From: Clostridia bacterium
Lineage (GTDB): Bacteria > Bacillota > Clostridia > Christensenellales > UBA1242
Direction: 5' to 3'
Assembly (NCBI GenBank): GCA_028702545.1
Contig: JAQVOQ010000002.1
Coordinates: 1 to 33,406, forward strand
Length of the DNA stretch: 33,406 bases
Below the pieces are notes generated by a model. The model was given only the letters and a program-made list of their open reading frames with translations, was not told where the DNA came from and ran no database searches. A program made the translations under genes and the position numbers. Shown here one piece after another: positions 6,929-21,406 of the stretch. Every line of letters begins with the position of its first letter. Within the stretch, counting starts at the first letter, position 1.

Positions 6929-7747
6929 CTATTTATTATTTGTAGGATTGCGCCATATAACTTTTGCACTATTAGGTGAAGAATTTTTGTTTATATTAGT
7001 GCTGTTTTGATTTTGTTTAGCACCACTAGTATCTTTTTTTAGGCATAAATACCAATCTGGGCAATAAACATTATTATCTATAATATTTCTTTTTCTGCGG
7101 TCAATATCTCCATCTATTGTCATAGGAGGAGGTAGTATTATATCATCACCAGGCATCCAGTTTGCAGGAATATGAACATTTTCGGTGTCGTGCTTTATAA
7201 CAGCTGTTACAAGACGCCTAATTTCTTCTCCGGACTTGCCTACTTCTCTTGGGTAAATTTGAATAGCTCTAATTTTTCCGTTAGGGTCAATCAAAAAACC
7301 ACCTCTTACTGTTTCCGTCTTAGTTTCACCTCTTCTTAAAAGCCCGTATCTGCGAGCAATTTCCATACTGCTATCTGATATTAGAGGAAAAGTAATTATG
7401 GTATTTTTAAAATCTAAATACTCCATATTATAAATACTCTCAAGCCAAGCAACATGAGAAAACATAGAATCTATGCTTAATGCAACTATTTCTACATTTA
7501 ACTTTTTATAAAATTCTTCACTTTCCATAAGTTCAAATAGTTCTGTTGTGGCAACGGGTCCAAAGTCGGCAGGATATGAATAAAACAAAACCCATTTACC
7601 CTTGTAATCAGCTGGGAAATTAATTGGACCTTTTGTAGACTCGGCTTTAAAAGGTGGAGCTGGTTCTCCTATTAAGGGCAAAGTGTAGATAGGTGGTATT
7701 TGATAAGTATCCTGAGCGTTTATGTTTTTTTTATTTTTTTCATCCAT
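6929..7747 (-). CDS. peroxiredoxin-like protein lacking the peroxidatic Cys (PADFGPVATTE)
   Basis: ORF-track ORF trimmed to the ATG at 7747, which has an AAGGAG RBS. Motifs are YSYPADFGPVATTE (Ala codon 7550-7552 in place of the peroxidatic Cys, Gly in place of Thr), TVRGGFLIDP and YCPDWYLC. It ends 18 nt upstream of paralog 6114..6911. Confidence 0.85.
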   Translation of the reverse strand: MDEKNKKNINAQDTYQIPPIYTLPLIGEPAPPFKAESTKGPINFPADYKGKWVLFYSYPADFGPVATTELFELMESEEFYKKLNVEIVALSIDSMFSHVAWLESIYNMEYLDFKNTIITFPLISDSSMEIARRYGLLRRGETKTETVRGGFLIDPNGKIRAIQIYPREVGKSGEEIRRLVTAVIKHDTENVHIPANWMPGDDIILPPPMTIDGDIDRRKRNIIDNNVYCPDWYLCLKKDTSGAKQNQNSTNINKNSSPNSAKVIWRNPTNNK

Positions 7748-7909
7748 AAAAAAACTCCTTTTTACTAAGTTATATATGAAAAAAGTATAAAAACAGTTAA
7801 CATAAAAATTAATATTGAGTAAAAAAGAGCCTAAAACAGCCTGTTTTGGTGCGAATCTTTTAAAAATGCACATTTTTTGATTAAATTAGTAGATTTATTT
7901 TCTAAAAAT

Positions 7910-8849: not shown

Positions 8850-8886
8850 TTGTGAATAAATAACTAAAGGCAGGGACTTGAGTTTT

Positions 8887-9906
8887 ATGCAAATAAAAAA
8901 AATAAAAGCATCAGGCGAGTTTAGGCACCGTTACATACAAATTAATGATGCAATATATACATTTAATCAAGCATTAATATCTTTTGCTAAAAAAGCAGAT
9001 GAAATTAGAAAAGTTCATTATTCAATGGATATCAAAAATGAAATACCGGTTACCGCTAAGTTCATTTATCCATCTGTTGAAGTTATGCAAAAAGAGATAG
9101 ATGCCAACATTAAAAATATAATTGAAAACTTGCATTTAAAAGCAAGTGATAAACAAATAGACGAGTTTTTTTCAGTATATAAATTACAAGATTACTTTTC
9201 AAATAAACTAACATACAGTATGTTAGCACAAGAAGAAAGAGGATATCAGTTCGAAGACAATAACTATTATATGAGTGCTATAAAATATAATAGGGATAAG
9301 CTTAGGTCGTTTAATTTAAAACCAGCGCCAGCACCGCAAGAAAGAAAGTTGTATAGAATTCAAAAACATAAAATTTATGAAGAGATGTCAAATGAAAATG
9401 AGTTTATAAAAAGCAATGTTCCTTTTAATCAAATAAATTATTTAAAAGGCTTATATAATGTATTTGTAAGAGAAAATGGAGTATGTTCGGAATTTTCTAA
9501 CGCATTTAGTTACATTTTAAACAAGATAGATATAGTAAGTTACAAAGTTTTGGTAAGTAAATTTATAAATAATACAGAGCTGTTCCACGCTTATAATTTA
9601 ATTGAGTTTGTAACAAAAGGACAAAAAAAATATTATGCTTGTGATTTAACCAGAAGCGTTTGTAACAAAGAAAAATACAATAATTTAAAAGTTAAAAATA
9701 GAATTCTAGGTTTTGGAATGGGAAGTGACCAATTAGAAGATACCAACAACTCTAAAATTCTATCTATTCAAAAATATGGCGAAAATTTACAAAAAGAATT
9801 TTTTCCACAAGTAGAAGAAGACATTTTAATAAACGATTTATCCGAAAGGTTGATAGAAAAACTTTTAAAAACTAATGATTTAGTTGAAGAGAAGGAAATA
9901 AATTAA
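8887..9906 (+). CDS. transglutaminase-like (Cys-His-Asp papain-fold) protein, paralog 1
   Basis: The ATG at 8887 is preferred: the TTG at 8878 abuts the RBS, and MQIKKIK parallels MEIKKVV of paralog 2. Core is NGVCSEFSNAF (Cys codon 9484-9486) ... FHAYNLIEF ... YYACDLT. No signal peptide. Confidence 0.75.
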   Translation: MQIKKIKASGEFRHRYIQINDAIYTFNQALISFAKKADEIRKVHYSMDIKNEIPVTAKFIYPSVEVMQKEIDANIKNIIENLHLKASDKQIDEFFSVYKLQDYFSNKLTYSMLAQEERGYQFEDNNYYMSAIKYNRDKLRSFNLKPAPAPQERKLYRIQKHKIYEEMSNENEFIKSNVPFNQINYLKGLYNVFVRENGVCSEFSNAFSYILNKIDIVSYKVLVSKFINNTELFHAYNLIEFVTKGQKKYYACDLTRSVCNKEKYNNLKVKNRILGFGMGSDQLEDTNNSKILSIQKYGENLQKEFFPQVEEDILINDLSERLIEKLLKTNDLVEEKEIN

Positions 9907-11003
9907 TGGAAATTAAAAAAGTTGTAACTGATAAGTTTTATAAAAATCAATATATTAATTTTGGTGGAAATATTTTTGAAATTAATTATTTTAAAGCGAT
10001 GAACCCATCATTAATTGGTGCGTTAGAAGAGGTTGAGGCAATATTAAAAAATTCTAAAGACAATTTAAAGGCGGCAAAATTTATAGAAAAAATAACCTTT
10101 AAGCCTTTTCCATCTAATAAAAAAATGATAGAAACTATTAATAAAAAATGCGAAAGTATTTGTGATTTTTTACAGTTAAATGAAATAAAAGGTGAGGATG
10201 CTAAAATAGTAAAATCACTCGTATTATTTAATTATCTTTCAAAAAATACAAGATATAATATGACCGTGCAAGAGTCGATAGATATTGATAATTTTGAAAA
10301 AATAATTAATAAAATGGAAAATAAACTAATTAAACTAAAAGAAGAACATCAAAATTTAGAAATTCTTAAAAATCTAATGGAAGATAAAAATGATAAAAAA
10401 ATTCTTTCAGCACAAATTGAGCATGTAAAAAAAGATTTTATATCACTATCAAACCAAAGCAATAAGTGTCTTATAGAGTTTTTGAATGAATTTTATATAA
10501 AAGCCATCTATAGCACTTTAATATATAATCAAGGTGTTTGCTCAGGATTTAGTTATACATATCAACTTTTATTAAAAACTGCAGGCATCAATGCATTTTC
10601 GTTAGAAGCATATAAAGAAGGTGAAGCTACGGGGCATGCATTTAACTTACTAGAATTTAAACAGGGAAATAAAACAACTTATCATATAGCGGATGTAACC
10701 TCGGCAATTGCGCAAGGTTCAAAAGATAGTAAAACAATTTTAAAGTCTTTTAGTATACCAAAAGAAAAGTATTTTTATATGATTAATCAAAATGTAGCGA
10801 CAATAAAAAAATTATCAAGTCTTAAAAAAGATTCGCGAACTACATTTTTTGAAAATATCTATACCTCAACTTTATGTGGCTTAATATATAACAAGATAAA
10901 TAATAAAGAAGTATTAGAAAAACAAAAATTAAAAGCACTAATTTTTATTGACAAGCATAGCAAAATTAAAGAGCAAATATTAAACGATGAAATAATAAAA
11001 TAA
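9906..11003 (+). CDS. transglutaminase-like (Cys-His-Asp) protein, paralog 2
   Basis: Its start overlaps the upstream stop (TAATG at 9904-9908). Core is QGVCSGFSYTY (Cys codon 10539-10541) ... GHAFNLLEF ... YHIADVT. The N-terminal half is helical. Confidence 0.8.
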   Translation: MEIKKVVTDKFYKNQYINFGGNIFEINYFKAMNPSLIGALEEVEAILKNSKDNLKAAKFIEKITFKPFPSNKKMIETINKKCESICDFLQLNEIKGEDAKIVKSLVLFNYLSKNTRYNMTVQESIDIDNFEKIINKMENKLIKLKEEHQNLEILKNLMEDKNDKKILSAQIEHVKKDFISLSNQSNKCLIEFLNEFYIKAIYSTLIYNQGVCSGFSYTYQLLLKTAGINAFSLEAYKEGEATGHAFNLLEFKQGNKTTYHIADVTSAIAQGSKDSKTILKSFSIPKEKYFYMINQNVATIKKLSSLKKDSRTTFFENIYTSTLCGLIYNKINNKEVLEKQKLKALIFIDKHSKIKEQILNDEIIK

Positions 11004-11035
11004 ATATTGAAATGTAAACTTGAGGGGAAAAAAAT

Positions 11036-12154
11036 ATGAAGCAAGAAGAAAAAGTAATACCAGTAGTAGCTGACGAATTTTACAAAGATTCTTATGTCGG
11101 TATAGGATATGATATTTTTGAGTCACAATATGCACTAGATAGGTATCCCGAGCATCAAGAAGCAATTTTAAAAGCTATTGAAGTAGTTAAACCTGCAAAA
11201 AATGTTATAAAATTGACATATAGGGCTTTTCCAAGCAATAATAAAATGATAGAAATTTTATTGAATAAGCGTGAAACAATTTATAAAAACTTGAATTTAG
11301 ATAAGATTGTTGGCAAAGGTTCGGATATAATAAAAGCATGGGTTTTATATGATTATATATCTTTAGGTTTGTTTTATAATATGGCAACTATGGAAGAAGT
11401 TGTAACAAAAATAAAAGGCGTTGAAAAAATATCTGAGACTTACGAAGAGTCATTTAAAAAACAAAATTTATTTGCTAAACTTTATAAATTAGCAAAAACA
11501 GAAGAAGAAAAACTTAAAATAGCTACTATGTGGGAAAAATTAGGAAGAAAAATATCAAATATTGAAACAGATTATTACAAAAAAGAAACTCAAGCGGATA
11601 ACCGTACTTATTTAAGACAACTTTATAGCGCACTTATAAGAGGCAAAGGAGTTTGTGCCGAGTTTAGTTATGTTTATCAATTTTTACTAGAAGGAATTGG
11701 CATAAAAAGTATATATACTATAATTTATGCGGAGGGTTCTAAATTTGCGCATGCAATTAATTTAGTTGAATTTAAAAAAGATAACAAAAAAGCATATTAT
11801 ATTGTAGATCTTACTGCGGGCAGTTCTTACGCTAAATCGTGCGAGGGCTCATATTTTAATTATCATGGTTTTGCAGTACCAAAAGATAAATATTTTGCTT
11901 TAGAAGATAATACGCAAAAGATTTGTGCAGCGGGTTATTTTAATGGATTAGATATTGATTTAAATAAAAAAATAGTAAAATTTTCATCAAGAGAATCAAC
12001 TATGGAAATACTAAGAAGAAAGATTGTAAATACTTTTGATTTCCAAAAGGAATATGAAAAAGCTGCAAGATTTTCACTATCAAGTTATTCTGAATTTGGT
12101 ACGGGCAAAACTAAAGAGCCTCAAAAAGAATATAAACAACAAGAAATTTTATAA
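11036..12154 (+). CDS. transglutaminase-like (Cys-His-Asp) protein, paralog 3
   Basis: GAGGGGA RBS. Core is KGVCAEFSYVY (Cys codon 11654-11656) ... AHAINLVEF ... YYIVDLT. The N-terminal motif FYKDSYVGIGYDIFE parallels FYKNQYINFGGNIFE of paralog 2. Confidence 0.8.
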   Translation: MKQEEKVIPVVADEFYKDSYVGIGYDIFESQYALDRYPEHQEAILKAIEVVKPAKNVIKLTYRAFPSNNKMIEILLNKRETIYKNLNLDKIVGKGSDIIKAWVLYDYISLGLFYNMATMEEVVTKIKGVEKISETYEESFKKQNLFAKLYKLAKTEEEKLKIATMWEKLGRKISNIETDYYKKETQADNRTYLRQLYSALIRGKGVCAEFSYVYQFLLEGIGIKSIYTIIYAEGSKFAHAINLVEFKKDNKKAYYIVDLTAGSSYAKSCEGSYFNYHGFAVPKDKYFALEDNTQKICAAGYFNGLDIDLNKKIVKFSSRESTMEILRRKIVNTFDFQKEYEKAARFSLSSYSEFGTGKTKEPQKEYKQQEIL

Positions 12155-12576: not shown

Positions 12577-13266
12577 ATGAACAATAATATAATAAGCGTA
12601 ATAAAAGACTATGATAACTACGCGACAATAACGAAAGAATATGATAATTACTTGCAATCAATTCAACAAACTACGCCAAAATATTTAAATGCAATAATAA
12701 TTATGGCGGTAGAAAAAGTTATGAGAATTCACAGTTTAGAAACATATAATCATGCCGAAAATATGATTAAAATTGTAACGCCTTTAGCTAAAGCACTTAA
12801 TTTAAGCAAAGAGGATTCAAAAAAGATAAAACTAATCGCAAAATTGCATGATATTGGTAAACTTTCAATAAGTCAAAGTATTTTAAACAAAAAATCACCA
12901 CTTGATGATAAAGAGTGGAATATTATTAAAACTCATCCTGTTGAATCATACAAAATAGTAAGGTGCATTGATTGCTCCATAGATGTGGCAAAAGATATTT
13001 TGCATCACCACGAGCGCTATGATGGCACAGGATACCCCAATAAATTAAAAGGTGAGGAAATACCATACTTGTCAAGAGTGATAGCTGTTGTTGATGCTTA
13101 TGAGGCTATGTTAAATGGAAGGATATATAAACAGCCAAGGCCAAATGCTGAGGTTATAGCTGAAATTAAGCATTGTTCGGGCACGCAATTTGACCCCAAT
13201 ATCGTAAAAGTTTTTGTAAAAACATTTGACAAACAAAAAAATAAAGAGGACTTTAAAAACCTTTAA
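12577..13266 (+). CDS. stand-alone HD-GYP domain phosphodiesterase (second copy)
   Basis: 229 aa with KLHDIGK and HHHERYDGTGYP. AAGGAG RBS at 12566-12571. Confidence 0.9.
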   Translation: MNNNIISVIKDYDNYATITKEYDNYLQSIQQTTPKYLNAIIIMAVEKVMRIHSLETYNHAENMIKIVTPLAKALNLSKEDSKKIKLIAKLHDIGKLSISQSILNKKSPLDDKEWNIIKTHPVESYKIVRCIDCSIDVAKDILHHHERYDGTGYPNKLKGEEIPYLSRVIAVVDAYEAMLNGRIYKQPRPNAEVIAEIKHCSGTQFDPNIVKVFVKTFDKQKNKEDFKNL

Positions 13267-13317: not shown

Positions 13318-13980
13318 CTAAACTTCTTTATAACAAAGCCACCAGTCTTTGCATTCATATTTTCCTTCTTGCATACCGCTTAGCCTTGCATCAATTTGTT
13401 GATTTGATTGAGGAGGCGGATAAACCATAACATTTTTGCCAAGCCACAGGTTATTAGGAAAGTTCTCAGGTGCTGCCATTTTATATTTATCTGACATTTG
13501 AAGTGCGTTTAAAGACCTTAAGACCTCGTCAACACTCCTGCCAATTTCTGGCGGATAGGTCATGGTTAGTCTAATAACTCCTCTTGGATCAATTATAAAA
13601 AGTTTTCTTACAGTTTTAGCACCCTTTTTAGCATGAACCATGCCTAACTCTTTTGCAACATTTCCTAAGGGGTCTTCAATAATAGGAAAGGGCACAGCCG
13701 TATTAGCATTTTCTTCAATCCACTCCACCCATTTAAAATGTGGGCCTAATCCATCAACGCTTAAGCCTAAAAGGTTGGCACCTAGTGCTTTAAATTCATC
13801 CACTCTATTTGACATAGCAACAAATTCTGTAGTGCAAATAGGCGTGAAGTCGCCAGGATGACTAAATAAAATTAGCCATTTACCAGCATAATCCTGAGGT
13901 AAGTTTTTAATGCCATCGGTCGTGCTAACTTGCATTTGTGGCAGTTCATCGCCTAGCATTAACTGCTTTTCTTCGTTCAT
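13318..13980 (-). CDS. peroxiredoxin, Prx6-like with a canonical active site and C-terminal C-x5-C
   Basis: 220 aa with FSHPGDFTPICTTEF (intact PxxxTxxC), TVRKLFIIDP and the C-terminal YECKDWWLCYKEV. AGGAGA RBS. Confidence 0.9.
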   Translation of the reverse strand: MNEEKQLMLGDELPQMQVSTTDGIKNLPQDYAGKWLILFSHPGDFTPICTTEFVAMSNRVDEFKALGANLLGLSVDGLGPHFKWVEWIEENANTAVPFPIIEDPLGNVAKELGMVHAKKGAKTVRKLFIIDPRGVIRLTMTYPPEIGRSVDEVLRSLNALQMSDKYKMAAPENFPNNLWLGKNVMVYPPPQSNQQIDARLSGMQEGKYECKDWWLCYKEV

Positions 13981-14097: not shown

Positions 14098-14943
14098 TTA
14101 ATTATTGCCGCCAGCATTTTGACCATAAGGTGGGCCAGCAATATTATTTATAATCCTATTGATTATTTCTGTTACTGCAACGCTTGAGGCCTCTGCATTT
14201 AGCAGTTTATATAATTCCATCATGTTCATACTAGCTAAATATTCTTCATGTCCTAAAAGCGTTGGAAACCTGTTTATTATTTTTTTGATGTAACAATATT
14301 TTGCGGGAGTAACATTTATATTTTGCTCAAAATGTTGTTTTAAGGCATTAAATTCTTCTATTGCCTCTTCATCATACTCTTCTACAATAATATTTCCATT
14401 AAGTCCATTGCTATTTAAATATGTGTTTACCATTGCTTGCAAATTATTTTTATAAGCATTTTCAACATTTTTATTTTTATTTTTTACAGAAAGCATTATT
14501 GCATTTTCAAAAGAATTTTGTAAGTAGCCATCATTTTGTGCTTTTGTAAGCACTGCATTTAAGGCAAGGTTATAGTTTAATCCAGGCAAAGTTAAGCCGG
14601 CTAAGAAAGTTGCTCCGTCGTCATTTATACCAGTTGCTCCAACTACAATCGCATCTGAGTTTAATGTTAATTCAATGCTTGGATTAATATCAAGTGTAAG
14701 CGTAGTATAAGCAGATTCAAGATTTGGCATAAGTGCGTTAAACATAACAAAAGCTATTAATACGAATGCCATAACAGCGGGTACAAGCCTAAAAACTAGT
14801 GAGCGTTTTGACGCCTTAGCTTTTGCTAGTTGATTACTCATTACAACAATGTCGGACTTTTGTCTAACTTTATCTATTACATCGGGTATGGGTAGTGAGT
14901 TTAATTCAATATTTAATTGTTTTATTAATTGTTTTTTATTCAT
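14098..14943 (-). CDS. membrane anti-sigma factor with an RsgI-type juxtamembrane (DINPS) domain
   Basis: 281 aa. The start overlaps the sigma stop by 8 nt. It has a short cytoplasmic N-terminus and one TM (LVPAVMAFVLIAFVMF). The ectodomain begins TLTLDINPSIELTLNSD...INDDGATFL (DINPS at 14677-14691), like B. subtilis RsgI ..IDINPSVEM..LNDEG. Confidence 0.75.
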   Translation of the reverse strand: MNKKQLIKQLNIELNSLPIPDVIDKVRQKSDIVVMSNQLAKAKASKRSLVFRLVPAVMAFVLIAFVMFNALMPNLESAYTTLTLDINPSIELTLNSDAIVVGATGINDDGATFLAGLTLPGLNYNLALNAVLTKAQNDGYLQNSFENAIMLSVKNKNKNVENAYKNNLQAMVNTYLNSNGLNGNIIVEEYDEEAIEEFNALKQHFEQNINVTPAKYCYIKKIINRFPTLLGHEEYLASMNMMELYKLLNAEASSVAVTEIINRIINNIAGPPYGQNAGGNN

Positions 14944-15463
14944 TACCCTTAACCTCCTTTTGTAATTTTTTAATGGCTTTACTGTAAATCCATAATACAG
15001 TTCCTAAGGGTTTGTCTAATTGAGTAGCAATTTCTCTATGTTTATATCCTAAAGTATATAGGGTCACCACCTGTCTTTCTTCAAAGTCTAATATTGTAAG
15101 CAATTTTTTTAAGAGCATATTATTTATCATACTGTCTTCATTACTTGAACTAAATAGATACTCATTTTCAACTTCATCTGTAATAATTTCTCTCTTTCTT
15201 CTATTATATGTATTTATTGCTATATTGCGAGAAAGGCTCATTATCCAAGCTTGTGCATTTGTATTTGCTCTATATTGGCCAATAGTTTTCCTTATTTTAA
15301 TATATGCGTCTTGCATTAATTCTTCCGCTATACCATAGTCTTTTATTATTGAAAATATAACAAAGAAAACCTGCTTTTTTGTTTGATTATAAACTGTTTC
15401 AAAAGCTTGTTCGTCACCTGTTTGCATTTTTTGCATATTTTGTTCTAATAGTTGCTTATCCAA
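14936..15463 (-). CDS. ECF-type sigma-70 family RNA polymerase sigma factor
   Basis: 175 aa. Region 2 (AFETVYNQTKKQVFFVIFSIIKDYGIAEELMQDAYIKI) and the region 4 HTH (LGYKHREIATQLDKPLGTVLWIYSKAIKKL) are recognisable. TTG start with an AAGGA RBS. Confidence 0.9.
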   Translation of the reverse strand: MDKQLLEQNMQKMQTGDEQAFETVYNQTKKQVFFVIFSIIKDYGIAEELMQDAYIKIRKTIGQYRANTNAQAWIMSLSRNIAINTYNRRKREIITDEVENEYLFSSSNEDSMINNMLLKKLLTILDFEERQVVTLYTLGYKHREIATQLDKPLGTVLWIYSKAIKKLQKEVKGNE

Positions 15464-15496: not shown

Positions 15497-15525
15497 ATTC
15501 TATCAAAACATTAAATTCTTAACAA
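15497..15525 (-). promoter_or_regulatory. candidate sigma-A promoter of the sigma/anti-sigma operon
   Basis: On the minus strand, TTGTTA (15520-15525) is followed by a 17-nt spacer and TGaTAGAAT (TAGAAT at 15497-15502). Confidence 0.5.
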
Positions 15526-15596
15526 ACAAATAACATACAAAACTTTTGTTACACTAATAATAACAATCAAAATGAAGTGTTTATTGGTAAAACTAT

Positions 15597-15625
15597 TAAA
15601 AAGCCACATAAAATGCAGCTTTTTA
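15597..15625 (-). terminator. intrinsic terminator after the 414-aa coiled-coil gene
   Basis: The minus-strand RNA forms AGCUGCAU-UUU-AUGUGGCU followed by UUUU. The G.U pairs make it specific to the minus strand. Confidence 0.6.
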
Positions 15626-15655
15626 AAGGATAAAACAAAATGTTAATTTGTATTG

Positions 15656-16900
15656 TTATGGTCTATTAGTTTGCCAAGTAGCTTGGATAGAATCTAAAAT
15701 GCTATCTATTTGCTCTTCGGTTAAATTGTTTTGAAAGTTTTTCCACTGAGCCTTTACTTGTTCTGATCTTTCAACTTTATTTGCTTGCCAATCTTCATAT
15801 TTATCTAATGCTGCACCTTTTTTTGTTTGTGCTTGAAGTTGCAAAGTATTTAAATATAGTTGTCTTGCACCAAGTGTTGATTGTAACTCGCTTAGTGTAA
15901 TATTAAGTGTAGCAATTTGATTTGTTAGTAAAACAACTTCTGCTTGCAAGTCACTAGCCGTTAATTCAGCCGTAGCAATTTGAGTAGTTATGCTTACTAT
16001 TTCAGTTTCTAAATCAGTAACAGCTAATTGATTTGCAGCAAGTTGAGTGTCATAAATTGCTAAATCTTCAACCGTATATTCTGTCGTATCAATAGCTTCA
16101 AAATTTACAAGTTCAGCTTGTGCTAATATTAAACTTGCATTAGCCGCATCTAATGTAGCATTAAGTGTAATAACTTCGTCTTGTGCTAGTATTAAATTTG
16201 CGTTAGCCGAATTTAATGTAAGATTAAGCGCATCAATTTGAGTTTGAGTCGCAATAATTTGTGAATCTAAATATTCAATATAACTTTCAACTTCTCTAGC
16301 ACCTCTTAACATATCCATCATATCTTTTACTGATAAGTTAAGGGCTTGTTCTGTTGTTACATCAGGATAAACGGCTTGAATACTCCTAATTAATTTTAGG
16401 TTTCCAGCGCCTACTCCTAAAGTTTCTGCCTCTGCGATAATGTCAGCCATATCAAGGTCTGTCATTATCACTCCATAAATACCATTGTTTTTGAAAAAGT
16501 TTTCTAAATGAGTTTTAACCCTATCTCTAAGCCTAGCTTGTAGTCTTATATTTTGAGATTCTAGTACGGTTGTAATTGTAATCGCATTAGGATCATCCGC
16601 TAAAGCTTCTGGGTCTAAGTAGCCATATTCTATGGCAAGTTCTACAATTCTCTCAGTAGCTTCTTCAATGCTTAAACCGATTAAATTATCAACCTCTCCT
16701 AGTAAAATTGTTTCGCCATCATCATTTGCTGCTGTTACGCTAACAACCTCGTTCGCGCCGTCAGTTACAAATTGTACACTTGGGTTAATGTCTACGCTAA
16801 CGTATGCCATAACTGAACCTATATTAGAGTTAAATACATAACCATAAAGTAAGCCTGTAATTAAAACCATAGGCAATATAATTGCTAATATTTTTTTCAT
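15656..16900 (-). CDS. membrane-anchored protein: RsgI-type DINPS domain fused to a long coiled coil, with no anti-sigma domain
   Basis: The ATG at 16900 is 8 nt after GGAGG (16909-16913). MKKILAIILPMVLITGLLYGYVF forms the TM, followed by VSVDINPSVQF...ANDDGETIL (DINPS at 16778-16792) and about 200 aa of A/L/Q/T-rich heptad repeats. Confidence 0.8.
   Translation of the reverse strand: MKKILAIILPMVLITGLLYGYVFNSNIGSVMAYVSVDINPSVQFVTDGANEVVSVTAANDDGETILLGEVDNLIGLSIEEATERIVELAIEYGYLDPEALADDPNAITITTVLESQNIRLQARLRDRVKTHLENFFKNNGIYGVIMTDLDMADIIAEAETLGVGAGNLKLIRSIQAVYPDVTTEQALNLSVKDMMDMLRGAREVESYIEYLDSQIIATQTQIDALNLTLNSANANLILAQDEVITLNATLDAANASLILAQAELVNFEAIDTTEYTVEDLAIYDTQLAANQLAVTDLETEIVSITTQIATAELTASDLQAEVVLLTNQIATLNITLSELQSTLGARQLYLNTLQLQAQTKKGAALDKYEDWQANKVERSEQVKAQWKNFQNNLTEEQIDSILDSIQATWQTNRP
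16105..16230 (-). repeat. imperfect 63-bp (21-codon) tandem duplication inside the coiled-coil gene
   Basis: Protein units LNLTLNSANANLILAQDEVIT and LNATLDAANASLILAQAELVN. A 48-nt core differs at 7 positions by eye. Confidence 0.6.
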
Positions 16901-16984
16901 AATAATTTCCTCCATATTTTTATTTTTTTAGTCTACGAACAATAAAACCATCTCAACATAGTTTTTATTGGCAATATTAAAAAA

Positions 16985-17013
16985 ATAATAAAAAACCCGA
17001 TAAATGATCAGGC
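16985..17013 (-). terminator. intrinsic terminator after the 280-aa coiled-coil gene
   Basis: The minus-strand RNA forms CCUGAU-CAUUU-AUCGGG followed by UUUUUUAUUAUUUUU. Confidence 0.6.
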
Positions 17014-17031
17014 TTTTTATTTTAGAAGTAT

Positions 17032-17874
17032 TTAATTTTGAAGAAATTGTATTCCATATTTAATTCTATATTGATTACTTAAAGTTTCACTAATTCTTAT
17101 TGTGGCTTTAACTTTATTCATTTTTTGTGTCATTGCTCGGTACTCTTTACTTACTTGTAACATTGATTCATTAAGTTCAACTAGTGATGTTTCTAAGGCA
17201 TCAATCTCAGCATAGTAAGCAGTTAATTCTTCTTCTGTATAAGTAGTAGTATCTGTTTCATAAAGAGTTGCAAGTTGAGTCTCTATTTGAGTGATTTGTT
17301 CATCAAACTTTATCATGTGCATTTCATTTTTATAAAGTTCGCCTTGCTGTAAACCTGCTGCCTTTTCATAAAAAGAAAAAGTTTTTTCTGCAAAAATTTC
17401 CTCAGCTGTATTGTTATATTGGAGTTGTTTTCTGGTTTGAAATTGTTCTCTTGCCATAATGCCCTCGGTTAGTTGCATGCGTAGTTGAGTCATTACTTTT
17501 AATGCTTCAAAATCAGCAATTTGAGTTTCTAATTCAGCAATTTGAGCGTTGTAAGCGACTAGTTCCTCTTCAGTATAGTTTGTAATGTCTCTTGCTAACA
17601 ACTCGTCCAAACTTGCTTGAAGGATTAAAAGTTCAGCATAAGTTTGAGTTTGTTGATTTAAGTAATAATTCAATTTTTGCATAGCAGATAAATTTTTTAC
17701 CTCTTCCTCTTCTTCTAGTAACCCTTTTTTCTTTTTCTGTTTGTTAATACCATTTTGAGACTGACCGCTCATGTAAGCAGTGTTTGTCATAGTTTGTTCA
17801 GCAGCAATCATTGGTGTAGCAACTGCACCACCTGCAAAAACGACTGGCAATAACAATGATAACAATATTTTCAT
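17032..17874 (-). CDS. secreted or membrane-anchored coiled-coil protein (280 aa)
   Basis: The ATG at 17874 is 6 nt after GGAGGT (17881-17886). It has the signal/anchor MKILLSLLLPVVFAGGAVATPMIAA and two copies of the module TNYTEEELVAYNAQIAELETQI / TTYTEEELTAYYAEIDALETSL, which also occurs in gene 15656..16900. Confidence 0.75.
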   Translation of the reverse strand: MKILLSLLLPVVFAGGAVATPMIAAEQTMTNTAYMSGQSQNGINKQKKKKGLLEEEEEVKNLSAMQKLNYYLNQQTQTYAELLILQASLDELLARDITNYTEEELVAYNAQIAELETQIADFEALKVMTQLRMQLTEGIMAREQFQTRKQLQYNNTAEEIFAEKTFSFYEKAAGLQQGELYKNEMHMIKFDEQITQIETQLATLYETDTTTYTEEELTAYYAEIDALETSLVELNESMLQVSKEYRAMTQKMNKVKATIRISETLSNQYRIKYGIQFLQN

Positions 17875-18004
17875 TTTTTTACCTCCATATTTTTTCATAC
17901 TTTTCGTATGTACTAATCATTAAACAATTTAAAAGCTAATTTTATTGTTAAAATATTAAAAAAAATTTTATTTTTAAAAAGTAGCAAAGAACGCTCAATA
18001 TACT

Positions 18005-18078: not shown

Positions 18079-19905
18079 ATGAACTCAAACACAAGAATAA
18101 GACAAATATTTTTATTTTCTTTAATAATTATGTTTTTTGTTGCAGGATTTTTTAATTTCTTAGTTAACAATAATTTGGTTGTTAGAGCATGGGACGGTGT
18201 GGTTAGTTCAACTCCCGTTGGAGCGGGTACGGAGGAAAGCCCTTATCTAATTTCAACAGCTGAAGAACTTTTTTGGTTAAGCACAGAAACTAACGAAGGT
18301 AATTTTTTAGGTGGCGAGTATTTTAAACTTACCGCTAATATTAACCTAGAAGATTATGAATGGCAACCAATTGGCGACTATGGTTCAGGAGACAGTACGA
18401 CGGCTTTTAGTGGCAACTTTGATGGCGACAACTTTACTGTTTATAATTTTAGCTTTAGAGATGATGAAAATATATTTCAGTATAGCGGTTTATTTGGTTA
18501 TGTTTATTCAGCGACTATAGAAAATTTAAAAGTTAAACAAATAGATTTGGACCTAGACTTAACTAATTATAATAATGATTTATATGCTGGAGCGCTAGCA
18601 GGATATGTAACTAGCTCTACGATATCCAATATTATAAGCGATGGAACGATAGATGTGTCAAATGGAACTCAAGCAGTTTATGCTGGTGGTATAGTTGGCT
18701 TATGTGAAAATTCAAGTTTAGAAATTTTACAAAATTTAGTAATAATAATTACAAATCAAGTTGCTGATGTTTATGCTGGAGGTTTAGTTGGCAAAACAAA
18801 TTATGCAACAATTGAAAAAAGTTATAACGATGATGCAATTATAATTAACTCAATAAATTCAGCCTTTGTCGGCGGACTAGTAGGTGAGGCCAGTCAAACA
18901 AATTTTCTAAAAGTTTATAACGATAAAAATATATCTGTTACAAGCGATATGATAAATGTTGGGGGACTAGTAGGTCTTTTGTCTAGCGATGCACTTAGTG
19001 AGGTTATTAACACGACTAAGTTTGTTTATAATAGAGGAACAATTATACTATCAGCTTTAGACGAACTAGAGGCCAATTTATTTATAGGTGGTTTAGTAGG
19101 ACAAACAACAGAAGATAACACAATTAGTTATGCCTATAATGCTGGACAAATAGGAGATGGAACGCTAGATGTAATAAATAAAGGCTCCCTTGTCGGCGCG
19201 TTAAACGCAATAGATGCAAGTGTTATGTATAGTTATTATGATAGAGAAAAAGCAGATTTTGGAGTAGATGGCATTGGTATAAATAGCGGAACTATTACAG
19301 ATGTTTACGATTTATCAACTACTAATATGCAATATTCTTACAGTTATGAAGGTGGCACAGAATGGAATTTTAATGATATTTGGAGAATGGCAACCAATCT
19401 TAATAGCAGATATCCAATACTAAGATATGTGGGCAACTACGCCGTGCAAGTTCAAACAGCGGGGTCTGGTACTGTTAGTTCAACAGGATTAAACTTTTAC
19501 AAAGTTGGTTACAGTCAAATATATACAATTGTGGCCAAAGAAGGTTGTCAAATTAAACAAATAATTTATCAAAATGAAATACTAAGTGAATATGCGGGAA
19601 GAACGAACCTAAACTTTACGGTAGAAAGCGATGGGTCTTATTCGCCGTCTACAATTAACTTGGCTGTTGAATTTGAAACGATTCCTTTTTATAAAACTAG
19701 CAGATTTTACTTTTTATTAGGCGTTGGATTACTTATTCTACTCATGATTGTTGGAACAATAATAATTAATTACAGATACGCAATTAAAATGGATAAAATA
19801 ATGGAAGAAAAGAAAAAAGGAATAAATATAGATGCAGTAGTTGAAAAGAACACTAAAAAATCAGAAGAACCAAAAAAGAAAGAAGAACCAAAAAAGAAAG
19901 AATAA
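18079..19905 (+). CDS. GLUG-motif repeat surface protein with an N-terminal signal/TM and a C-terminal TM anchor
   Basis: 608 aa with repeated units YAGALAGY, YAGGIVGL, YAGGLVGK, FVGGLVGE, NVGGLVGL and FIGGLVGQ. The C-terminal TM is FYFLLGVGLLILLMIVGTIIINY, followed by a K/E-rich tail. Confidence 0.85.
   Translation: MNSNTRIRQIFLFSLIIMFFVAGFFNFLVNNNLVVRAWDGVVSSTPVGAGTEESPYLISTAEELFWLSTETNEGNFLGGEYFKLTANINLEDYEWQPIGDYGSGDSTTAFSGNFDGDNFTVYNFSFRDDENIFQYSGLFGYVYSATIENLKVKQIDLDLDLTNYNNDLYAGALAGYVTSSTISNIISDGTIDVSNGTQAVYAGGIVGLCENSSLEILQNLVIIITNQVADVYAGGLVGKTNYATIEKSYNDDAIIINSINSAFVGGLVGEASQTNFLKVYNDKNISVTSDMINVGGLVGLLSSDALSEVINTTKFVYNRGTIILSALDELEANLFIGGLVGQTTEDNTISYAYNAGQIGDGTLDVINKGSLVGALNAIDASVMYSYYDREKADFGVDGIGINSGTITDVYDLSTTNMQYSYSYEGGTEWNFNDIWRMATNLNSRYPILRYVGNYAVQVQTAGSGTVSSTGLNFYKVGYSQIYTIVAKEGCQIKQIIYQNEILSEYAGRTNLNFTVESDGSYSPSTINLAVEFETIPFYKTSRFYFLLGVGLLILLMIVGTIIINYRYAIKMDKIMEEKKKGINIDAVVEKNTKKSEEPKKKEEPKKKE
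19864..19899 (+). repeat. perfect 18-bp tandem duplication encoding (EEPKKK)x2
   Basis: GAAGAACCAAAAAAGAAA occurs at 19864-19881 and again at 19882-19899, just before the stop codon. Confidence 0.95.
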
Positions 19906-20915: not shown

Positions 20916-20956
20916 TTATGTATACATTAAACAATAAAAATTTAAGGAAGCACTTT

Positions 20957-21406
20957 ATGAAAGAAAACAAGGCCAAAAGTTTTAAAAACATTGCTTTTAT
21001 GTTTGCAATGCTAATTTTTGTAGCCGTTGTTGCAAGTGTTACCTATGTTATTGTTTATAATAAACTTAAGCCGACCATGTTACTTGCACCAACAAACCTC
21101 GAATTACTTGAAGGCAATGAACTATCTTGGGATGAGGTTGCACATGCCGATAGTTACAGCGTGCAAATACTAAACCGAACAATTAATCATACTGTTACAA
21201 TTTATGTTTACGATACGATGTATACTTTAAATGCGTTGCAAAAAATAGTTTACGATATTTCAGACGAGATTGAAACAAATAGCAATTATTCAATTGCGGT
21301 AAAAGCGAACTCTAACACGATAGAAAATTCTGGCTATTGCAACGCTTATGAATTGCAACAAGTCAACCCAGAAGAAGATATTAATCCGTATATTCCAGAA
21401 GAATAA
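20957..21406 (+). CDS. membrane-anchored hypothetical protein (149 aa)
   Basis: AAGGAAG RBS. The N-terminal TM is IAFMFAMLIFVAVVASVTYVIVY. The ectodomain reads LAPTNLELLEGNELSWDEVAHADSYSVQIL, which looks FN3-like but is unverified. Confidence 0.7.
   Translation: MKENKAKSFKNIAFMFAMLIFVAVVASVTYVIVYNKLKPTMLLAPTNLELLEGNELSWDEVAHADSYSVQILNRTINHTVTIYVYDTMYTLNALQKIVYDISDEIETNSNYSIAVKANSNTIENSGYCNAYELQQVNPEEDINPYIPEE

What the first reader, a model, noticed from the sequence alone, without database searches (positions are those of the whole stretch)
15656..17874. Orphan DINPS-domain membrane protein fused to a long coiled coil, plus a secreted coiled-coil paralog sharing a T-x-Y-T-x-E-E-L module
Gene 15656..16900 encodes a three-residue cytoplasmic tip and one TM. 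The same RsgI-like domain as the neighbouring anti-sigma follows (VSVDINPSVQF...ANDDGETIL, DINPS at 16778-16792), and then about 200 aa of A/L/Q/T heptads. It has no anti-sigma domain at all. Gene 17032..17874 encodes a signal peptide plus coiled coil. The two proteins share three copies of the module D-x-T-x-Y-T-x-E-(E/D)-L-x-(A/I)-Y..(Q/E)(I/L): TTEYTVEDLAIYDTQL, TNYTEEELVAYNAQI and TTYTEEELTAYYAEI. If the Asn-Pro bond autocleaves as in RsgI, the coiled-coil ectodomain would be held non-covalently on a roughly 40-aa membrane stub. That could make it a sheddable or force-sensitive surface filament, or a decoy or partner for the anti-sigma sensor domain. This is inference only.
Basis: partly seen in the sequence, partly recalled or inferred. 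Interest (0 to 1): 0.65.

Follow-up and report, generated by a model that had tools for sequence, protein, structure and literature searches.

The report
Sigma-controlled self-cleaving surface stalk protein
Two neighbouring genes encode a membrane-tethered protein with a probably self-cutting RsgI-type (SEAL) domain carrying a helical hairpin stalk, and a secreted protein built from two such hairpins; both carry the same promoter motif as the adjacent sigma factor gene, and the sigma, anti-sigma and anti-sigma-less SEAL protein recur together in many wall-less and low-GC bacteria.

Summary
Gene A (15656-16900, minus strand) has a 3-residue tip and one hydrophobic segment. An RsgI-type SEAL domain follows, with the cleavage hairpin D-I-N|P-S intact, then about 190 helical residues. 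Gene B (17032-17874, minus strand) has a signal peptide plus helices. The D-x-T-x-Y-T-x-E-E-L module occurs once in A and twice in B.

Four points need correcting.
- The "coiled coil" is most likely an antiparallel hairpin stalk, and the module is its distal turn. The two arm lengths co-vary across homologues.
- Anti-sigma-less SEAL proteins are not rare. About 120 of the 159 top profile hits have this layout, and one Acholeplasma example is reported to autocleave.
- The GLUG gene lacks the shared promoter motif.
- The anchor could instead be a cleavable signal peptide.

New evidence: one promoter-like motif (ACCAATAAA-N13-TTGTT) precedes the sigma operon, A and B. It recurs before orthologous sigma and orphan-SEAL genes in more than 25 species. 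Of 63 orphan-SEAL loci, 36 carry an ECF sigma within 4 kb.

So A and B are probably direct targets of the adjacent sigma. I read A as an autocleaved, force-releasable surface stalk. Whether it is an output or a trans-acting sensor for the anti-sigma is unresolved. It is a new variant of a known kind.

The parts
15656..16900 (-). Gene A: anti-sigma-less SEAL protein with a helical hairpin stalk (414 aa)
   Evidence: ORF list and RBS. Pfam RsgI_M, E 9e-22. AlphaFold2 model, mean pLDDT 83. 16-member family alignment A1.
16829..16900 (-). Residues 1-24, MKK plus a hydrophobic segment: a membrane anchor or a Sec signal peptide
   Evidence: Predicted helix 2-24. The homologues P0010 and P0014 carry lipoboxes (LSGC, LASC) at the same place. 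V-M-A|Y at residues 29-31|32 fits a signal peptidase I site (read from the sequence), so the kind of anchoring is unresolved.
16301..16807 (-). RsgI-type periplasmic (SEAL) domain, residues 32 to about 200, including the C-terminal helical subdomain shared with the anti-sigma
   Evidence: Pfam covers 32-171. PDB profile hits to the cleaved periplasmic domains of RsgI1/2/6/9 span profile positions 39-201. Foldseek hit to 8t9n_B, E 1e-4, target TM-score 0.75. hhalign against the anti-sigma alignment gives 99.8% over residues 3-203.
16778..16792 (-). D37-I-N39|P40-S41: the predicted autocleavage hairpin, with the scissile bond between N39 and P40
   Evidence: Invariant in A1. It lies between predicted strands 32-37 and 41-46. 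Residue 1 of chain B in the solved cleaved RsgI domains aligns to P40. Cleavage between Asn and Pro was shown experimentally for RsgI proteins (PMC10328401 and PMC10556640).
16094..16291 (-). Stalk arm 1 (helix 204-269), containing a 63-nt (21-aa) tandem duplication at 16093-16218
   Evidence: arm 1 is 71 residues here and 50 in most homologues.
16061..16090 (-). Tip module DTTEYTVEDL: the helix break at 270-276 plus the N-cap of the returning helix
   Evidence: Conserved as D-T-[TS]-x-[YF]-[TD] in P0001-5, P0011 and P0013.
15728..16072 (-). Stalk arm 2 (helix 277-391), with 63-nt periodic repeats
   Evidence: Its length co-varies with arm 1 across the family.
15674..15802 (-). Conserved C-terminal segment KYxxWxxNKxxRxEQVKxxWxxFxNNLTEEQ..., predicted to return to the base of the stalk
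   Evidence: The most conserved part outside the SEAL domain. The motif is restricted to P0001-13 plus two others. It is kept in P0006 and P0007, which lack the stalk.
16946..16971 (-). Promoter-like motif CCAATAAAAACTATGTTGAGATGGTT, 71 nt upstream of gene A
15596..15626 (-). Terminator-like hairpin directly after gene A
17032..17874 (-). Gene B: secreted protein made of two hairpins (280 aa)
   Evidence: AlphaFold2 model with helices 64-93, 102-150, 157-206 and 214-279. Only four family members among 5.8 billion proteins, each adjacent to an A homologue wherever the context could be read.
17800..17874 (-). Signal peptide of B, MKILLSLLLPVVFAGGAVATPMIAA|EQ
   Evidence: Read from the sequence. 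Conserved in homologues.
17560..17589 (-). Tip module 1 of B, DITNYTEEEL
   Evidence: helix break at 94-101.
17224..17253 (-). Tip module 2 of B, DTTTYTEEEL
   Evidence: helix break at 207-213.
17923..17948 (-). Promoter-like motif ACAATAAAATTAGCTTTTAAATTGTT, 74 nt upstream of gene B
16987..17021 (-). Terminator-like hairpin directly after gene B
14936..15463 (-). ECF-type sigma factor gene
   Evidence: Sigma70_r2 and r4. TIGR02937 sigma70-ECF at 66.7 bits, cut-off 42.9.
14098..14943 (-). Anti-sigma factor: short N-terminal domain, TM, SEAL domain (DINPS at 14677-14691) and a short G/N/P-rich tail. It overlaps the sigma gene by 8 nt.
15562..15587 (-). Promoter-like motif CCAATAAACACTTCATTTTGATTGTT, 124 nt upstream of the sigma gene (presumed autoregulated promoter)
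15497..15525 (-). Housekeeping-type promoter-like site, TTGTTA-17-TAGAAT with TG, proximal to the sigma gene
   Evidence: Conserved in L001 and L003.

Best explanation
Gene A encodes a cell-surface protein held at the membrane by an N-terminal hydrophobic segment. Its homologues use a lipid anchor at the same position.

Layout of A:
- Next to the membrane sits a complete RsgI-type SEAL (periplasmic) domain.
- An antiparallel two-helix stalk projects from it, about 70 residues or 10 nm per arm. Its distal turn is the DTTxYTxE(E/D)L module.
- The conserved C-terminal helices come back to the base.

By homology, the SEAL domain cuts itself between N39 and P40. The ectodomain then stays attached only through beta-strand pairing with a stub of about 39 residues. 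A pull on the stalk, or unfolding, can therefore release it.

A has no cytoplasmic domain, so release cannot signal inward by itself.

Gene B encodes a secreted protein made of two copies of the same hairpin-with-tip unit. It probably arose from A's stalk and most plausibly acts with the stalk, or on the same partner.

A, B and the sigma/anti-sigma operon are separate transcripts. Each is preceded by the same motif (ACCAATAAA, 13-14 nt, TTGT[TA]). I take this motif to be the promoter read by the adjacent ECF sigma, so A and B would be switched on whenever that sigma is released.

Committed reading: A is the most conserved output of this envelope-signalling sigma. It is a sigma-induced, autocleaved, force-releasable surface stalk, analogous to the SEA-domain breakaway anchoring of mucins.

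Shown here: architecture, conservation, synteny, shared motif. Inferred: autocleavage, sigma dependence, hairpin geometry, release under force.
For: Architecture:
- Pfam RsgI_M.
- The SEAL fold matches 8t9n, 8hdj and 8her.
- PDB profile hits show the cleaved chain B starting exactly at the residue that aligns with P40.
- D37, N39, P40, S41, N59 and D61 are invariant or nearly so in the family. They correspond to the residues conserved around the RsgI2 cleavage site.

Hairpin:
- The AlphaFold2 model has helices 204-269 and 277-391 with pLDDT 97-98.
- Foldseek finds similarity to helical hairpins such as RipA and Smc.
- The two arm lengths co-vary across homologues: 71/90, 50/69, 26/53 and 3/21.
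- 63-nt duplications lie in both arms.

Precedent: an Acholeplasma (P. brassicae) TM-SEAL-helical protein that lacks a sigma-binding domain autocleaves in E. coli.

Regulation:
- Terminator-like hairpins follow B and A.
- The motif lies upstream of sigma, A and B in the window. There are 5 matches at up to one mismatch, no shuffle out of 100 reaches that number, and the three intergenic matches are these sites.
- The motif is at the same places in L001, L003, L006, L010 and L172.
- In 79 further species loci there are 33 hits, all on the gene strand, and 29 lie directly upstream of a sigma gene or an orphan SEAL gene.
- A strict exact-match scan of all species genomes placed 27 sites 17-20 nt before a sigma gene. 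It placed 16 sites 22-34 nt before an orphan SEAL gene. A few more sat before other secreted proteins or lipoproteins, including a subtilase in three genomes.

Synteny: 36 of 63 orphan-SEAL loci have an ECF sigma within 4 kb, in three gene orders.

B:
- Its homology to the stalk tip is supported.
- The tips are invariant in all four homologues.
- It lies next to A wherever the context could be read.
Against: - No experiment or transcript data exist for this locus. No RNA runs were found.
- The motif has not been shown to be a promoter or to be read by this sigma.
- The hairpin comes from a monomer AlphaFold2 model built on only 16 sequences. Intermolecular coiled coils are not excluded.
- The N-terminal segment looks as much like a cleavable Sec signal peptide as like a TM anchor. 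If signal peptidase removes it, A is soluble and release from a stub has no meaning.
- Being in the regulon and next to the sigma fits a regulatory partner equally well.
- 27 of 63 orphan SEAL genes have no sigma within the 4-kb flanks.
- In L172 the A homologue has a degenerate tip while B keeps perfect tips. The two tips therefore need not act together.
Confidence: 0.55

Rival explanations
1. Split-RsgI or accessory-sensor model. A is part of the signalling device, not an output. Its ectodomain, a paralogue of the anti-sigma's own TM-plus-SEAL part, binds or shields the anti-sigma ectodomain. Pulling A's cleaved ectodomain off exposes the anti-sigma to site-1 and site-2 proteolysis. Because the sigma induces A, new A restores the shield, which gives negative feedback.
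For: - A residues 3-203 are homologous to the anti-sigma's TM and SEAL domain at 99.8% probability.
- A sits inside or beside the sigma/anti-sigma operon in 36 of 63 loci.
- In 15 of those loci the anti-sigma has no detectable SEAL domain, and the orphan SEAL lipoprotein that follows it is the only autocleaving element.
- In one gene order the motif precedes only the orphan gene, which then heads the operon.
- Third components that modulate ECF anti-sigmas are known, for example RseB and CseA (my own knowledge).
Against:
- A keeps its motif when it is unlinked from any sigma gene, as in L006.
- In the window clade A is monocistronic, with its own terminator.
- Other genes carrying the motif are plain surface proteins, so regulon membership does not imply a regulatory role.
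Confidence: 0.3
2. A is a soluble secreted protein. The N-terminal segment is a Sec signal peptide cut after V-M-A31. The SEAL domain then only sheds an 8-residue beta-strand peptide (Y32-N39), or has a folding or maturation role. Neither anchoring nor force release is involved.
For: - The n, h and c regions (MKK; a 20-residue h-region with P and G; small residues at -3 and -1 in all non-lipoprotein homologues) fit Gram-positive signal peptides (sequences; the rule is my own knowledge).
- SEAL proteins with signal peptides instead of TM segments are reported, and one autocleaves.
Against: - About half of the short-N-terminus family members carry lipoboxes. These include P0010 in the same clade and with the same synteny, so membrane tethering appears to be the conserved state.
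- Invariant conservation of the cleavage hairpin is hard to explain if the cut has no consequence.
Confidence: 0.2
3. One reading: the roughly 200 helical residues form one long, extended coiled coil that makes homo- or hetero-oligomers with B, a surface filament of about 30 nm.
For: - The composition is heptad-like and rich in A, L, Q and T.
- A and B share a homologous segment.
- A monomer AlphaFold2 run cannot test intermolecular coils.
Against: - A conserved helix break lies exactly at the shared module.
- pLDDT of 97-98 on both arms of a monomer model argues for intramolecular packing.
- Insertions and deletions always affect both arms together, including homologues that lack both arms.
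- The conserved C-terminal segment is kept when the stalk is absent.
Confidence: 0.1
4. There is no functional link. A and B merely lie next to the sigma pair through shared ancestry, and the shared motif is a chance AT-rich word or the site of an unrelated regulator.
For: - The close relatives L001, L003 and L172 also share unrelated neighbours such as folD, a nitroreductase and the GLUG gene.
- Synteny within this clade alone is therefore weak evidence.
Against: - The association holds across distant lineages and three different gene orders.
- The motif has fixed spacing and strand, and a fixed distance to the start codons of sigma and orphan SEAL genes, in dozens of species.
- Shuffles give 0.8 matches where 5 are seen.
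Confidence: 0.03

Closest known systems
RsgI anti-sigma-I factors (B. subtilis RsgI; C. thermocellum RsgI1-9) and their SEAL / periplasmic domain
   Same: - The juxtamembrane domain family is the same (PF23750).
[quoted passage not shown]
- The predicted fold is the same.
- In those proteins the domain autocleaves, the fragments stay associated, and separation permits intramembrane proteolysis.
   Different: - A has no cytoplasmic sigma-binding domain, no disordered region and no carbohydrate-binding module. It carries a helical hairpin instead.
- The partner sigma is ECF-type by NCBIfam, and the top hits are not SigI models.
- The neighbouring anti-sigma's N-terminal domain has no RsgI_N hit.
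P. brassicae BN85316100 (Brogan et al. 2023, Fig. S13): TM, SEAL domain and an unannotated helical domain, lacking a sigma-binding domain
   Same: - It has a membrane segment plus SEAL domain plus an all-helical C-terminal domain, with no anti-sigma domain.
- It comes from an Acholeplasma-type organism.
- It was shown to autocleave in E. coli, and the fragments stayed associated.
   Different: - Its tail is described as a six-helix bundle, not a two-arm stalk.
- No link to a sigma regulon or to a secreted paralogue was reported.
- I could not obtain its sequence, so I could not test whether it belongs to the same subfamily.
SEA-domain transmembrane mucins (for example MUC1), and GAIN/MAIN-domain surface proteins
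   Same: - An autocleaved juxtamembrane domain holds a long ectodomain non-covalently on a short membrane stub.
- Release by force has been proposed for them.
   Different: The folds and cleavage chemistry are unrelated. This is an analogy only. Mucin ectodomains are glycosylated and disordered, not helical.
Accessory third components of ECF sigma/anti-sigma systems (RseB with RseA; CseA with SigE in Streptomyces; YhdK with YhdL)
   Same: An extracytoplasmic or membrane protein is encoded with the sigma/anti-sigma pair and co-regulated with it (my own knowledge).
   Different: There is no sequence or fold relation. None of those proteins carries an autoproteolytic domain.
Antiparallel coiled-coil hairpins of RipA, PcsB and EnvC, and the Smc arms
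   Same: The long two-helix antiparallel hairpin geometry is the same. Foldseek target TM-scores are 0.65-0.74 to 6ewy, 9hmx_A and 5nnv_B.
   Different: There is no hydrolase domain and no FtsEX or SteAB genes nearby. Sequence identity is only 13-15%, which is generic coiled-coil likeness.

Membership tests
SEAL / RsgI periplasmic domain (Pfam PF23750 RsgI_M) | Profile match above the curated cut-off | tested here: met
   78.5 bits against a cut-off of 25.3 for residues 32-171. PDB profile hits to RsgI1/2/6/9 and B. subtilis RsgI range from E 1e-15 to 8e-6.
SEAL / RsgI periplasmic domain (Pfam PF23750 RsgI_M) | Asn-Pro scissile pair in a tight turn between strands beta1 and beta2 | tested here: met
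   N39-P40 is invariant in 16 of 16 family members. Predicted strands are 32-37 and 41-46. The first residue of the solved cleaved chain B aligns with P40.
SEAL / RsgI periplasmic domain (Pfam PF23750 RsgI_M) | Conserved polar residues around the cleavage site (RsgI2 D95, S99, N117, D119) | tested here: met
   D37, S41 and N59 are invariant and D61 nearly invariant, with the same 20-residue spacing from N39 to N59 (residues listed in PMC10328401).
SEAL / RsgI periplasmic domain (Pfam PF23750 RsgI_M) | Fold like the solved SEAL domains | tested here: met
   Foldseek: 8t9n_B at E 1e-4, target TM-score 0.75, rmsd 3.3; 8hdj and 8her at E 1e-4 to 6e-4. The query is a predicted model, not a solved structure.
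SEAL / RsgI periplasmic domain (Pfam PF23750 RsgI_M) | Autoproteolysis with non-covalent retention of the two fragments | not testable with these tools
   This needs protein expression and mass spectrometry or Edman sequencing. It has been shown for RsgI proteins and for two non-anti-sigma SEAL proteins.
RsgI-type anti-sigma factor | Cytoplasmic N-terminal sigma-binding domain before the TM segment | tested here: not met
   Only MKK precedes the hydrophobic segment in A and its homologues. There is no RsgI_N or zf-HC2 hit. A is therefore not an anti-sigma factor.
RsgI-type anti-sigma factor | Cognate sigma of the SigI type | tested here: inconclusive
   The adjacent sigma passes the ECF superfamily model TIGR02937 (66.7 bits, cut-off 42.9). 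The 25 best NCBIfam hits are ECF models, but only 25 of 88 hits were shown.
Regulon of the adjacent ECF sigma | The same promoter motif as the sigma's own (autoregulated) operon, conserved at orthologous positions | tested here: met
   Motifs at 15562-15587, 16946-16971 and 17923-17948. The same pattern recurs in L001, L003, L006, L010 and L172, and in more than 20 further species.
Regulon of the adjacent ECF sigma | Transcription that starts at the motif and depends on the sigma | not testable with these tools
   No RNA runs hold this sequence. It needs TSS mapping, in vitro transcription or sigma overexpression.
Antiparallel coiled-coil hairpin (stalk) | Two long helices joined by a short turn, with arm lengths that change together | tested here: met
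   AlphaFold2 helices 204-269 and 277-391 with a break at 270-276. Arm pairs of 71/90, 50/69, 26/53 and 3/21 across homologues. 63-nt repeats in both arms. This rests on a prediction plus comparative evidence only.
B as a paralogue of A's stalk | Significant sequence similarity beyond shared composition | tested here: met
   BLASTP 1e-4 with composition adjustment. hhalign 94% probability, E 1.3e-7, over 53 columns centred on the tip. The shared motif occurs in 0.01-0.025% of shuffles. The support is moderate, because the region is short.
Membrane-anchored surface protein | Stable TM or lipid anchor | tested here: inconclusive
   The hydrophobic segment covers residues 4-23 and has no Cys. V-M-A|Y is compatible with signal peptidase I. 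The clade member P0010 and many relatives have lipoboxes.

The most novel reading that the evidence does not exclude
The sigma, the anti-sigma and the anti-sigma-less SEAL protein form a 'split RsgI'. Force sensing would sit on one polypeptide (the autocleaving SEAL stalk, A) and sigma binding on another (the anti-sigma). Release of A's ectodomain would gate proteolysis of the anti-sigma in trans, and sigma-driven resynthesis of A would reset the switch. In Acholeplasma-type, wall-less bacteria this would be a mechanosensory envelope pathway that works without peptidoglycan. B would be a secreted modulator that carries the same tip.
Probability: 0.2. Interest if true: 0.8.

Novelty: new variant of a known kind. 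Interest (0 to 1): 0.55.

Why it matters
SEAL domains are the first bacterial autoproteolytic modules proposed to turn mechanical force into gene expression. So far they have been studied only inside RsgI anti-sigma factors of walled Firmicutes.

What this locus adds:
- The same domain, stripped of its signalling end and fused to a variable-length helical stalk, forms a large family.
- That family is repeatedly wired to an ECF sigma/anti-sigma pair, both by position and by a conserved promoter motif.
- This holds in Acholeplasma-type lineages, including cultured ones (A. granularum, strain zrk7).

What becomes testable:
- A candidate promoter consensus and a minimal conserved regulon for an uncharacterised ECF group.
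- Whether SEAL-based release can act in trans.
- What a breakaway surface stalk does for a cell.

If A is only an ordinary sigma-induced surface protein, the gain is modest: a better annotation for thousands of proteins now labelled 'RsgI_M only'.

Tried and rejected
- Transcript evidence. The window is found in landfill, manure and wastewater DNA metagenomes, but no RNA run holds it. Transcription starts could not be checked.
- Organism identity through PheT. The best matches are only 48% identical and carry inconsistent MAG labels such as 'Christensenella', 'Mollicutes' and 'Bacillota'. I can only say a low-GC (about 30%) Bacillota or Mycoplasmatota-like lineage. Whether it has a cell wall is unknown.
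- GLUG gene as part of the regulon. Rejected: it lacks the motif and has a conserved TTGTTAGGTATAAT-type promoter.
- Motif-bearing lipoproteins (L182, L231, L248) as paralogues of the SEAL-less anti-sigma ectodomain. Rejected: no BLASTP similarity.
- Anti-phage defence role. There were no PADLOC hits beyond coiled-coil noise.
The run with 3 sequences gave only pLDDT 68, so I did not use B's overall shape.
- The supplement tables of the SEAL paper are not held. The domain-architecture counts there could not be compared.
- A promoter atlas for Mollicutes does not mention ECF sigmas or this motif.

Full report
**What is in the sequence.** All genes of the finding are on the minus strand.

Gene A is 15656-16900. 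A GGAGG lies 8 nt before the ATG at 16900, and all homologues begin with MKK. The longer ORF from 16915 is an artefact of the ribosome-binding site.

The product (414 aa) begins MKK followed by a 20-residue hydrophobic segment. Pfam RsgI_M (PF23750) matches residues 32-171 at 78.5 bits, against a cut-off of 25.3. DINPS is at 16778-16792.

The neighbouring anti-sigma (14098-14943) has the same domain (E 1.3e-22; DINPS at 14677-14691). It overlaps an ECF-type sigma gene (14936-15463) by 8 nt.

Gene B is 17032-17874, again with GGAGG 8 nt upstream. It encodes a Sec-type signal peptide followed by helices. An automatic gene caller had started it 64 codons later (P0017), but the signal peptide is conserved in homologues.

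**The SEAL domain looks competent for autocleavage.**
- The 16-member family alignment keeps D37, I38, N39, P40, S41 and N59 invariant, and D61 nearly so.
- These correspond to D95, N97|P98, S99, N117 and D119 of C. thermocellum RsgI2. Those are the scissile pair and the polar residues around it (PMC10328401).
- B. subtilis and clostridial SEAL domains cut between the equivalent N and P (PMC10556640).
- The AlphaFold2 model (mean pLDDT 83) puts N39-P40 in the turn between strands 32-37 and 41-46.
- Foldseek finds B. subtilis RsgI (8t9n_B, E 1e-4, target TM-score 0.75) and C. thermocellum RsgI2 and RsgI6.
- In a profile search of PDB sequences, the C-terminal cleavage fragments of four solved RsgI domains start exactly at the position of P40 and run to about residue 201.

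The four short helices at 152-200, which A shares with the anti-sigma, are therefore simply the helical subdomain of the RsgI periplasmic domain. Profile-profile comparison shows that A residues 3-203 are homologous to the anti-sigma's TM segment plus SEAL domain (99.8%).

A is in effect the anti-sigma's membrane and outer part without the sigma-binding head. It fails the defining test for an anti-sigma factor.

**The helical tail is a hairpin stalk, and the shared module is its tip.**
- The model has helix 204-269, a break at 270-276 (DTTEYT), and helix 277-391, with pLDDT 97-98 across both arms.
- The structural neighbours of this part are antiparallel hairpins such as the RipA N-terminal domain and Smc arms.
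- The strongest evidence is comparative. Across homologues the two arms change length together: 71/90 in the window protein, 50/69 in most, 26/53 in P0008 and P0009, and 3/21 in P0006 and P0007, which lack the stalk. The C-terminal segment KYxxWxxNK...NLTEEQ stays conserved throughout.
- The window protein's extra length comes from a 63-nt (three-heptad) tandem duplication in arm 1 and 63-nt periodic repeats in arm 2.

The picture is therefore a conserved base next to the membrane (SEAL domain plus C-terminal helices), a variable stalk of about 10 nm, and the conserved acidic and aromatic module at its far end. A monomer model cannot exclude intermolecular coils.

**Gene B.**
- Its model is weaker (pLDDT 68). 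It shows four helices with breaks at 94-101 and 207-213, which are the two modules, so B is two hairpins.
- BLASTP of A against B gives 1e-4. The profile-profile comparison gives 94% probability and E 1.3e-7 over the tip region.
- The motif core appears in only 0.01-0.025% of shuffles.
- B is very rare. Only four proteins were found among 5.8 billion. Wherever the context could be read, B lies directly upstream of an A homologue: the window, L001 and L172.
- L003 has A, sigma and anti-sigma but no B.
- In L172 the A homologue has a short stalk with a degenerate tip, while B keeps both tips intact.

B thus looks like a lineage-specific secreted offshoot of the stalk. Its tips are under their own constraint.

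**A is not an orphan in the wider sense.**
- A full profile search of 1.84 billion representatives found 10,158 SEAL proteins (E up to 0.001) and 421 with E up to 1e-30.
- Of the 159 A-family proteins in hand (the 150 listed hits plus the earlier family members), about 120 have a short N-terminal anchor directly followed by the SEAL hairpin (DINPS or RINPE). About half of these anchors are lipoboxes. Most of these proteins continue into a helix-rich tail without Pfam domains.
- The paper that named the SEAL domain already notes SEAL proteins without an anti-sigma domain. It shows that a TM-SEAL-helical protein of P. brassicae (BN85316100) autocleaves in E. coli.
- What is specific to the small clade P0001-13 is the tip module and the C-terminal motif.

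**Link to the sigma factor: position.** I scanned one genome per species with the family alignment. I then classified the ORFs with small HMMs built here.

| Class of locus | Number |
|---|---|
| Species-level loci examined | 79 |
| With a clear anti-sigma-less SEAL gene | 63 |
| Of those, with an ECF-type sigma gene on the same strand within 4 kb | 36 |
| Order orphan, sigma, SEAL anti-sigma (as in the window) | 12 |
| Order sigma, SEAL anti-sigma, orphan | 9 |
| Order sigma, anti-sigma without detectable SEAL, orphan lipoprotein | 15 |

The last order is the one seen in L010. The lineages are Acholeplasmataceae, Izemoplasma, Mariniplasma, Haloplasmataceae and various Clostridia-labelled MAGs.

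**Link to the sigma factor: a shared promoter motif.**
- Terminator-like hairpins follow B (16987-17021) and A (15596-15626), so B, A and the sigma operon are separate transcripts.
- Each is preceded by CCAATAA-N14-TTGTT, at 17923-17948, 16946-16971 and 15562-15587. At up to one mismatch the window has five matches against 0.8 expected, and no shuffle out of 100 reaches five.
- The same motif sits before sigma, A and B in L001 and L172. It sits before A and sigma in L003, and before sigma and the orphan in L010. It also sits before a lone A homologue in L006 that has no sigma nearby.
- In the 79 further loci, a relaxed pattern hits 33 times in 1.17 Mb. Every hit is on the gene strand, and 29 lie directly upstream of a sigma gene or an orphan SEAL gene.
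- The consensus of 36 sites is taCCAATAAAA-N12-tTTGT(a/t)Tat. Its geometry fits a -35 and -10 pair with a 16-17 nt spacer.
- A strict exact-match scan of all species genomes gave 112 sites. Of these, 27 lie 17-20 nt before an ECF sigma gene and 16 lie 22-34 nt before an orphan SEAL gene. A handful precede other secreted proteins of Acholeplasma-type genomes. These include an S8 subtilase with Listeria-Bacteroides repeats in three genomes, small lipoproteins and a DUF2202 lipoprotein. The remainder are scattered hits in unrelated phyla.
- The carriers include cultured organisms: Acholeplasma granularum (L181) and strain zrk7 (L238).
- In the window clade the sigma operon also has a proximal housekeeping-type site, TTGTTA-17-TGATAGAAT (15497-15525). 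That is the usual dual-promoter layout of autoregulated ECF sigmas.
- The GLUG gene has only a housekeeping-type promoter and no motif.

My inference is that the motif is the cognate promoter of this ECF group. The anti-sigma-less SEAL protein would then be its most conserved target after the sigma operon itself, and B would be a target in the window clade. That the sigma reads the motif is not shown.

**How it most likely works.**

Shown: the architecture, the conservation of the cleavage hairpin, the synteny and the shared motif.

Inferred:
- A is exported with its N-terminus in the membrane.
- It cuts itself at N39|P40, and its 375-residue ectodomain stays on a stub of about 39 residues through beta-strand pairing.
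- It can be pulled off by force applied at the stalk tip.

A has only three cytoplasmic residues, so release cannot itself carry a signal inward. Its function must lie outside the cell. I favour a sigma-induced, releasable surface stalk as an output of the pathway, analogous to the breakaway SEA anchoring of mucins. My confidence in this whole package is 0.55.

The main rival (0.3) is that A is part of the sensor, a 'split RsgI' that shields or partners the anti-sigma and gives feedback. That rival is attractive for the 15 loci where the anti-sigma has no SEAL domain of its own.

A third possibility (0.2) is that the N-terminal segment is a cleavable signal peptide. V-M-A|Y, with small residues at -3 and -1 in all non-lipoprotein homologues, would fit. 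A would then be soluble. Against this, many relatives, including P0010 in the same clade, have lipoboxes.

**Comparison with known systems and novelty.** A is a member of the SEAL-domain family: every sequence and fold criterion was met, and cleavage was not testable. It is not an RsgI anti-sigma factor. The closest described relative by architecture is the P. brassicae TM-SEAL-helical protein.

In the literature I could search I found no description of the following:
- the recurrent sigma / anti-sigma / orphan-SEAL triad;
- the conserved promoter motif that places the orphan in the sigma's regulon;
- the variable-length hairpin stalk with a conserved tip;
- the secreted double-hairpin paralogue.

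I rate this a new variant of a known kind, with interest 0.55.

Noticed in passing
window 8878-12154 (+); L001 10812-15342 (-): Three tandem paralogous genes (342, 365 and 372 aa) lie just beyond the anti-sigma side of the locus. They share motifs such as KGVC.EFSY.YQFLL, and only the third has a weak transglutaminase-like (DUF553) hit. L001 has four such paralogues at the equivalent place.
   Followed up: partly
window 6114-6911, 6929-7873, 13318-13980 (all -): There are three AhpC/peroxiredoxin-family genes within 8 kb. Two are in tandem, one of them with an N-terminal extension of about 65 residues.
   Followed up: no
window 1132-1776 (-) and 12577-13266 (+): Two stand-alone HD-GYP-type (HD_5) proteins have no sensor domains. 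In L003 the gene at the equivalent position next to the anti-sigma is a full PAS-GGDEF-HD-GYP protein.
   Followed up: no
window 28364-29761 and 29785-31119 (+): Tandem paralogues of TRAM-domain tRNA/rRNA (uracil-5)-methyltransferase.
   Followed up: no
window 18079-19905 (+): The GLUG-repeat protein has an N-terminal signal or TM segment, a C-terminal TM segment and a K/E-rich cytoplasmic tail. It is transcribed divergently from B. It is conserved in L001, L003 and L172, and it has a conserved TTGTTAGGTATAAT-type promoter rather than the sigma motif.
   Followed up: partly
window 15497-15525 (-): A second, housekeeping-type promoter-like site with an extended -10 lies between the shared motif and the sigma start codon. 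It is conserved in L001 and L003. Acholeplasmataceae sigma genes lack this spacer and have the motif only 47 nt from the start codon.
   Followed up: partly
P0020 (890 aa), P0023 (783 aa): These relatives each have three tandem SEAL domains behind a lipobox. If each domain cleaves, the protein would be a chain of non-covalently linked pieces.
   Followed up: no
L178 4273, L204 2253, L246 2812: An 832-aa secreted S8 subtilase with Listeria-Bacteroides repeats and an Ig-like domain carries the strict sigma motif 31 nt upstream in three Acholeplasma-type genomes. The sigma gene of each genome lies on another contig. This is a probable further regulon member.
   Followed up: partly
L104 1726-2760: One anti-sigma homologue carries a duplicated copy of the helical subdomain (ITVAKLLLINKILELEE...) before its P/G/N/D-rich tail. 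Most anti-sigmas of this group end in a short low-complexity tail reminiscent of the RsgI disordered region.
   Followed up: no
window 20918-21406 (+): A 162-aa membrane protein beside folD is conserved in L001 and L003. Its only hit is weak, to a Mycoplasma MAG0130/MAG3770 family model (E 0.003).
   Followed up: no
window 17506-17546: A 21-nt tandem repeat (2 copies, 90% match) lies inside gene B, in the helix after tip 1.
   Followed up: no
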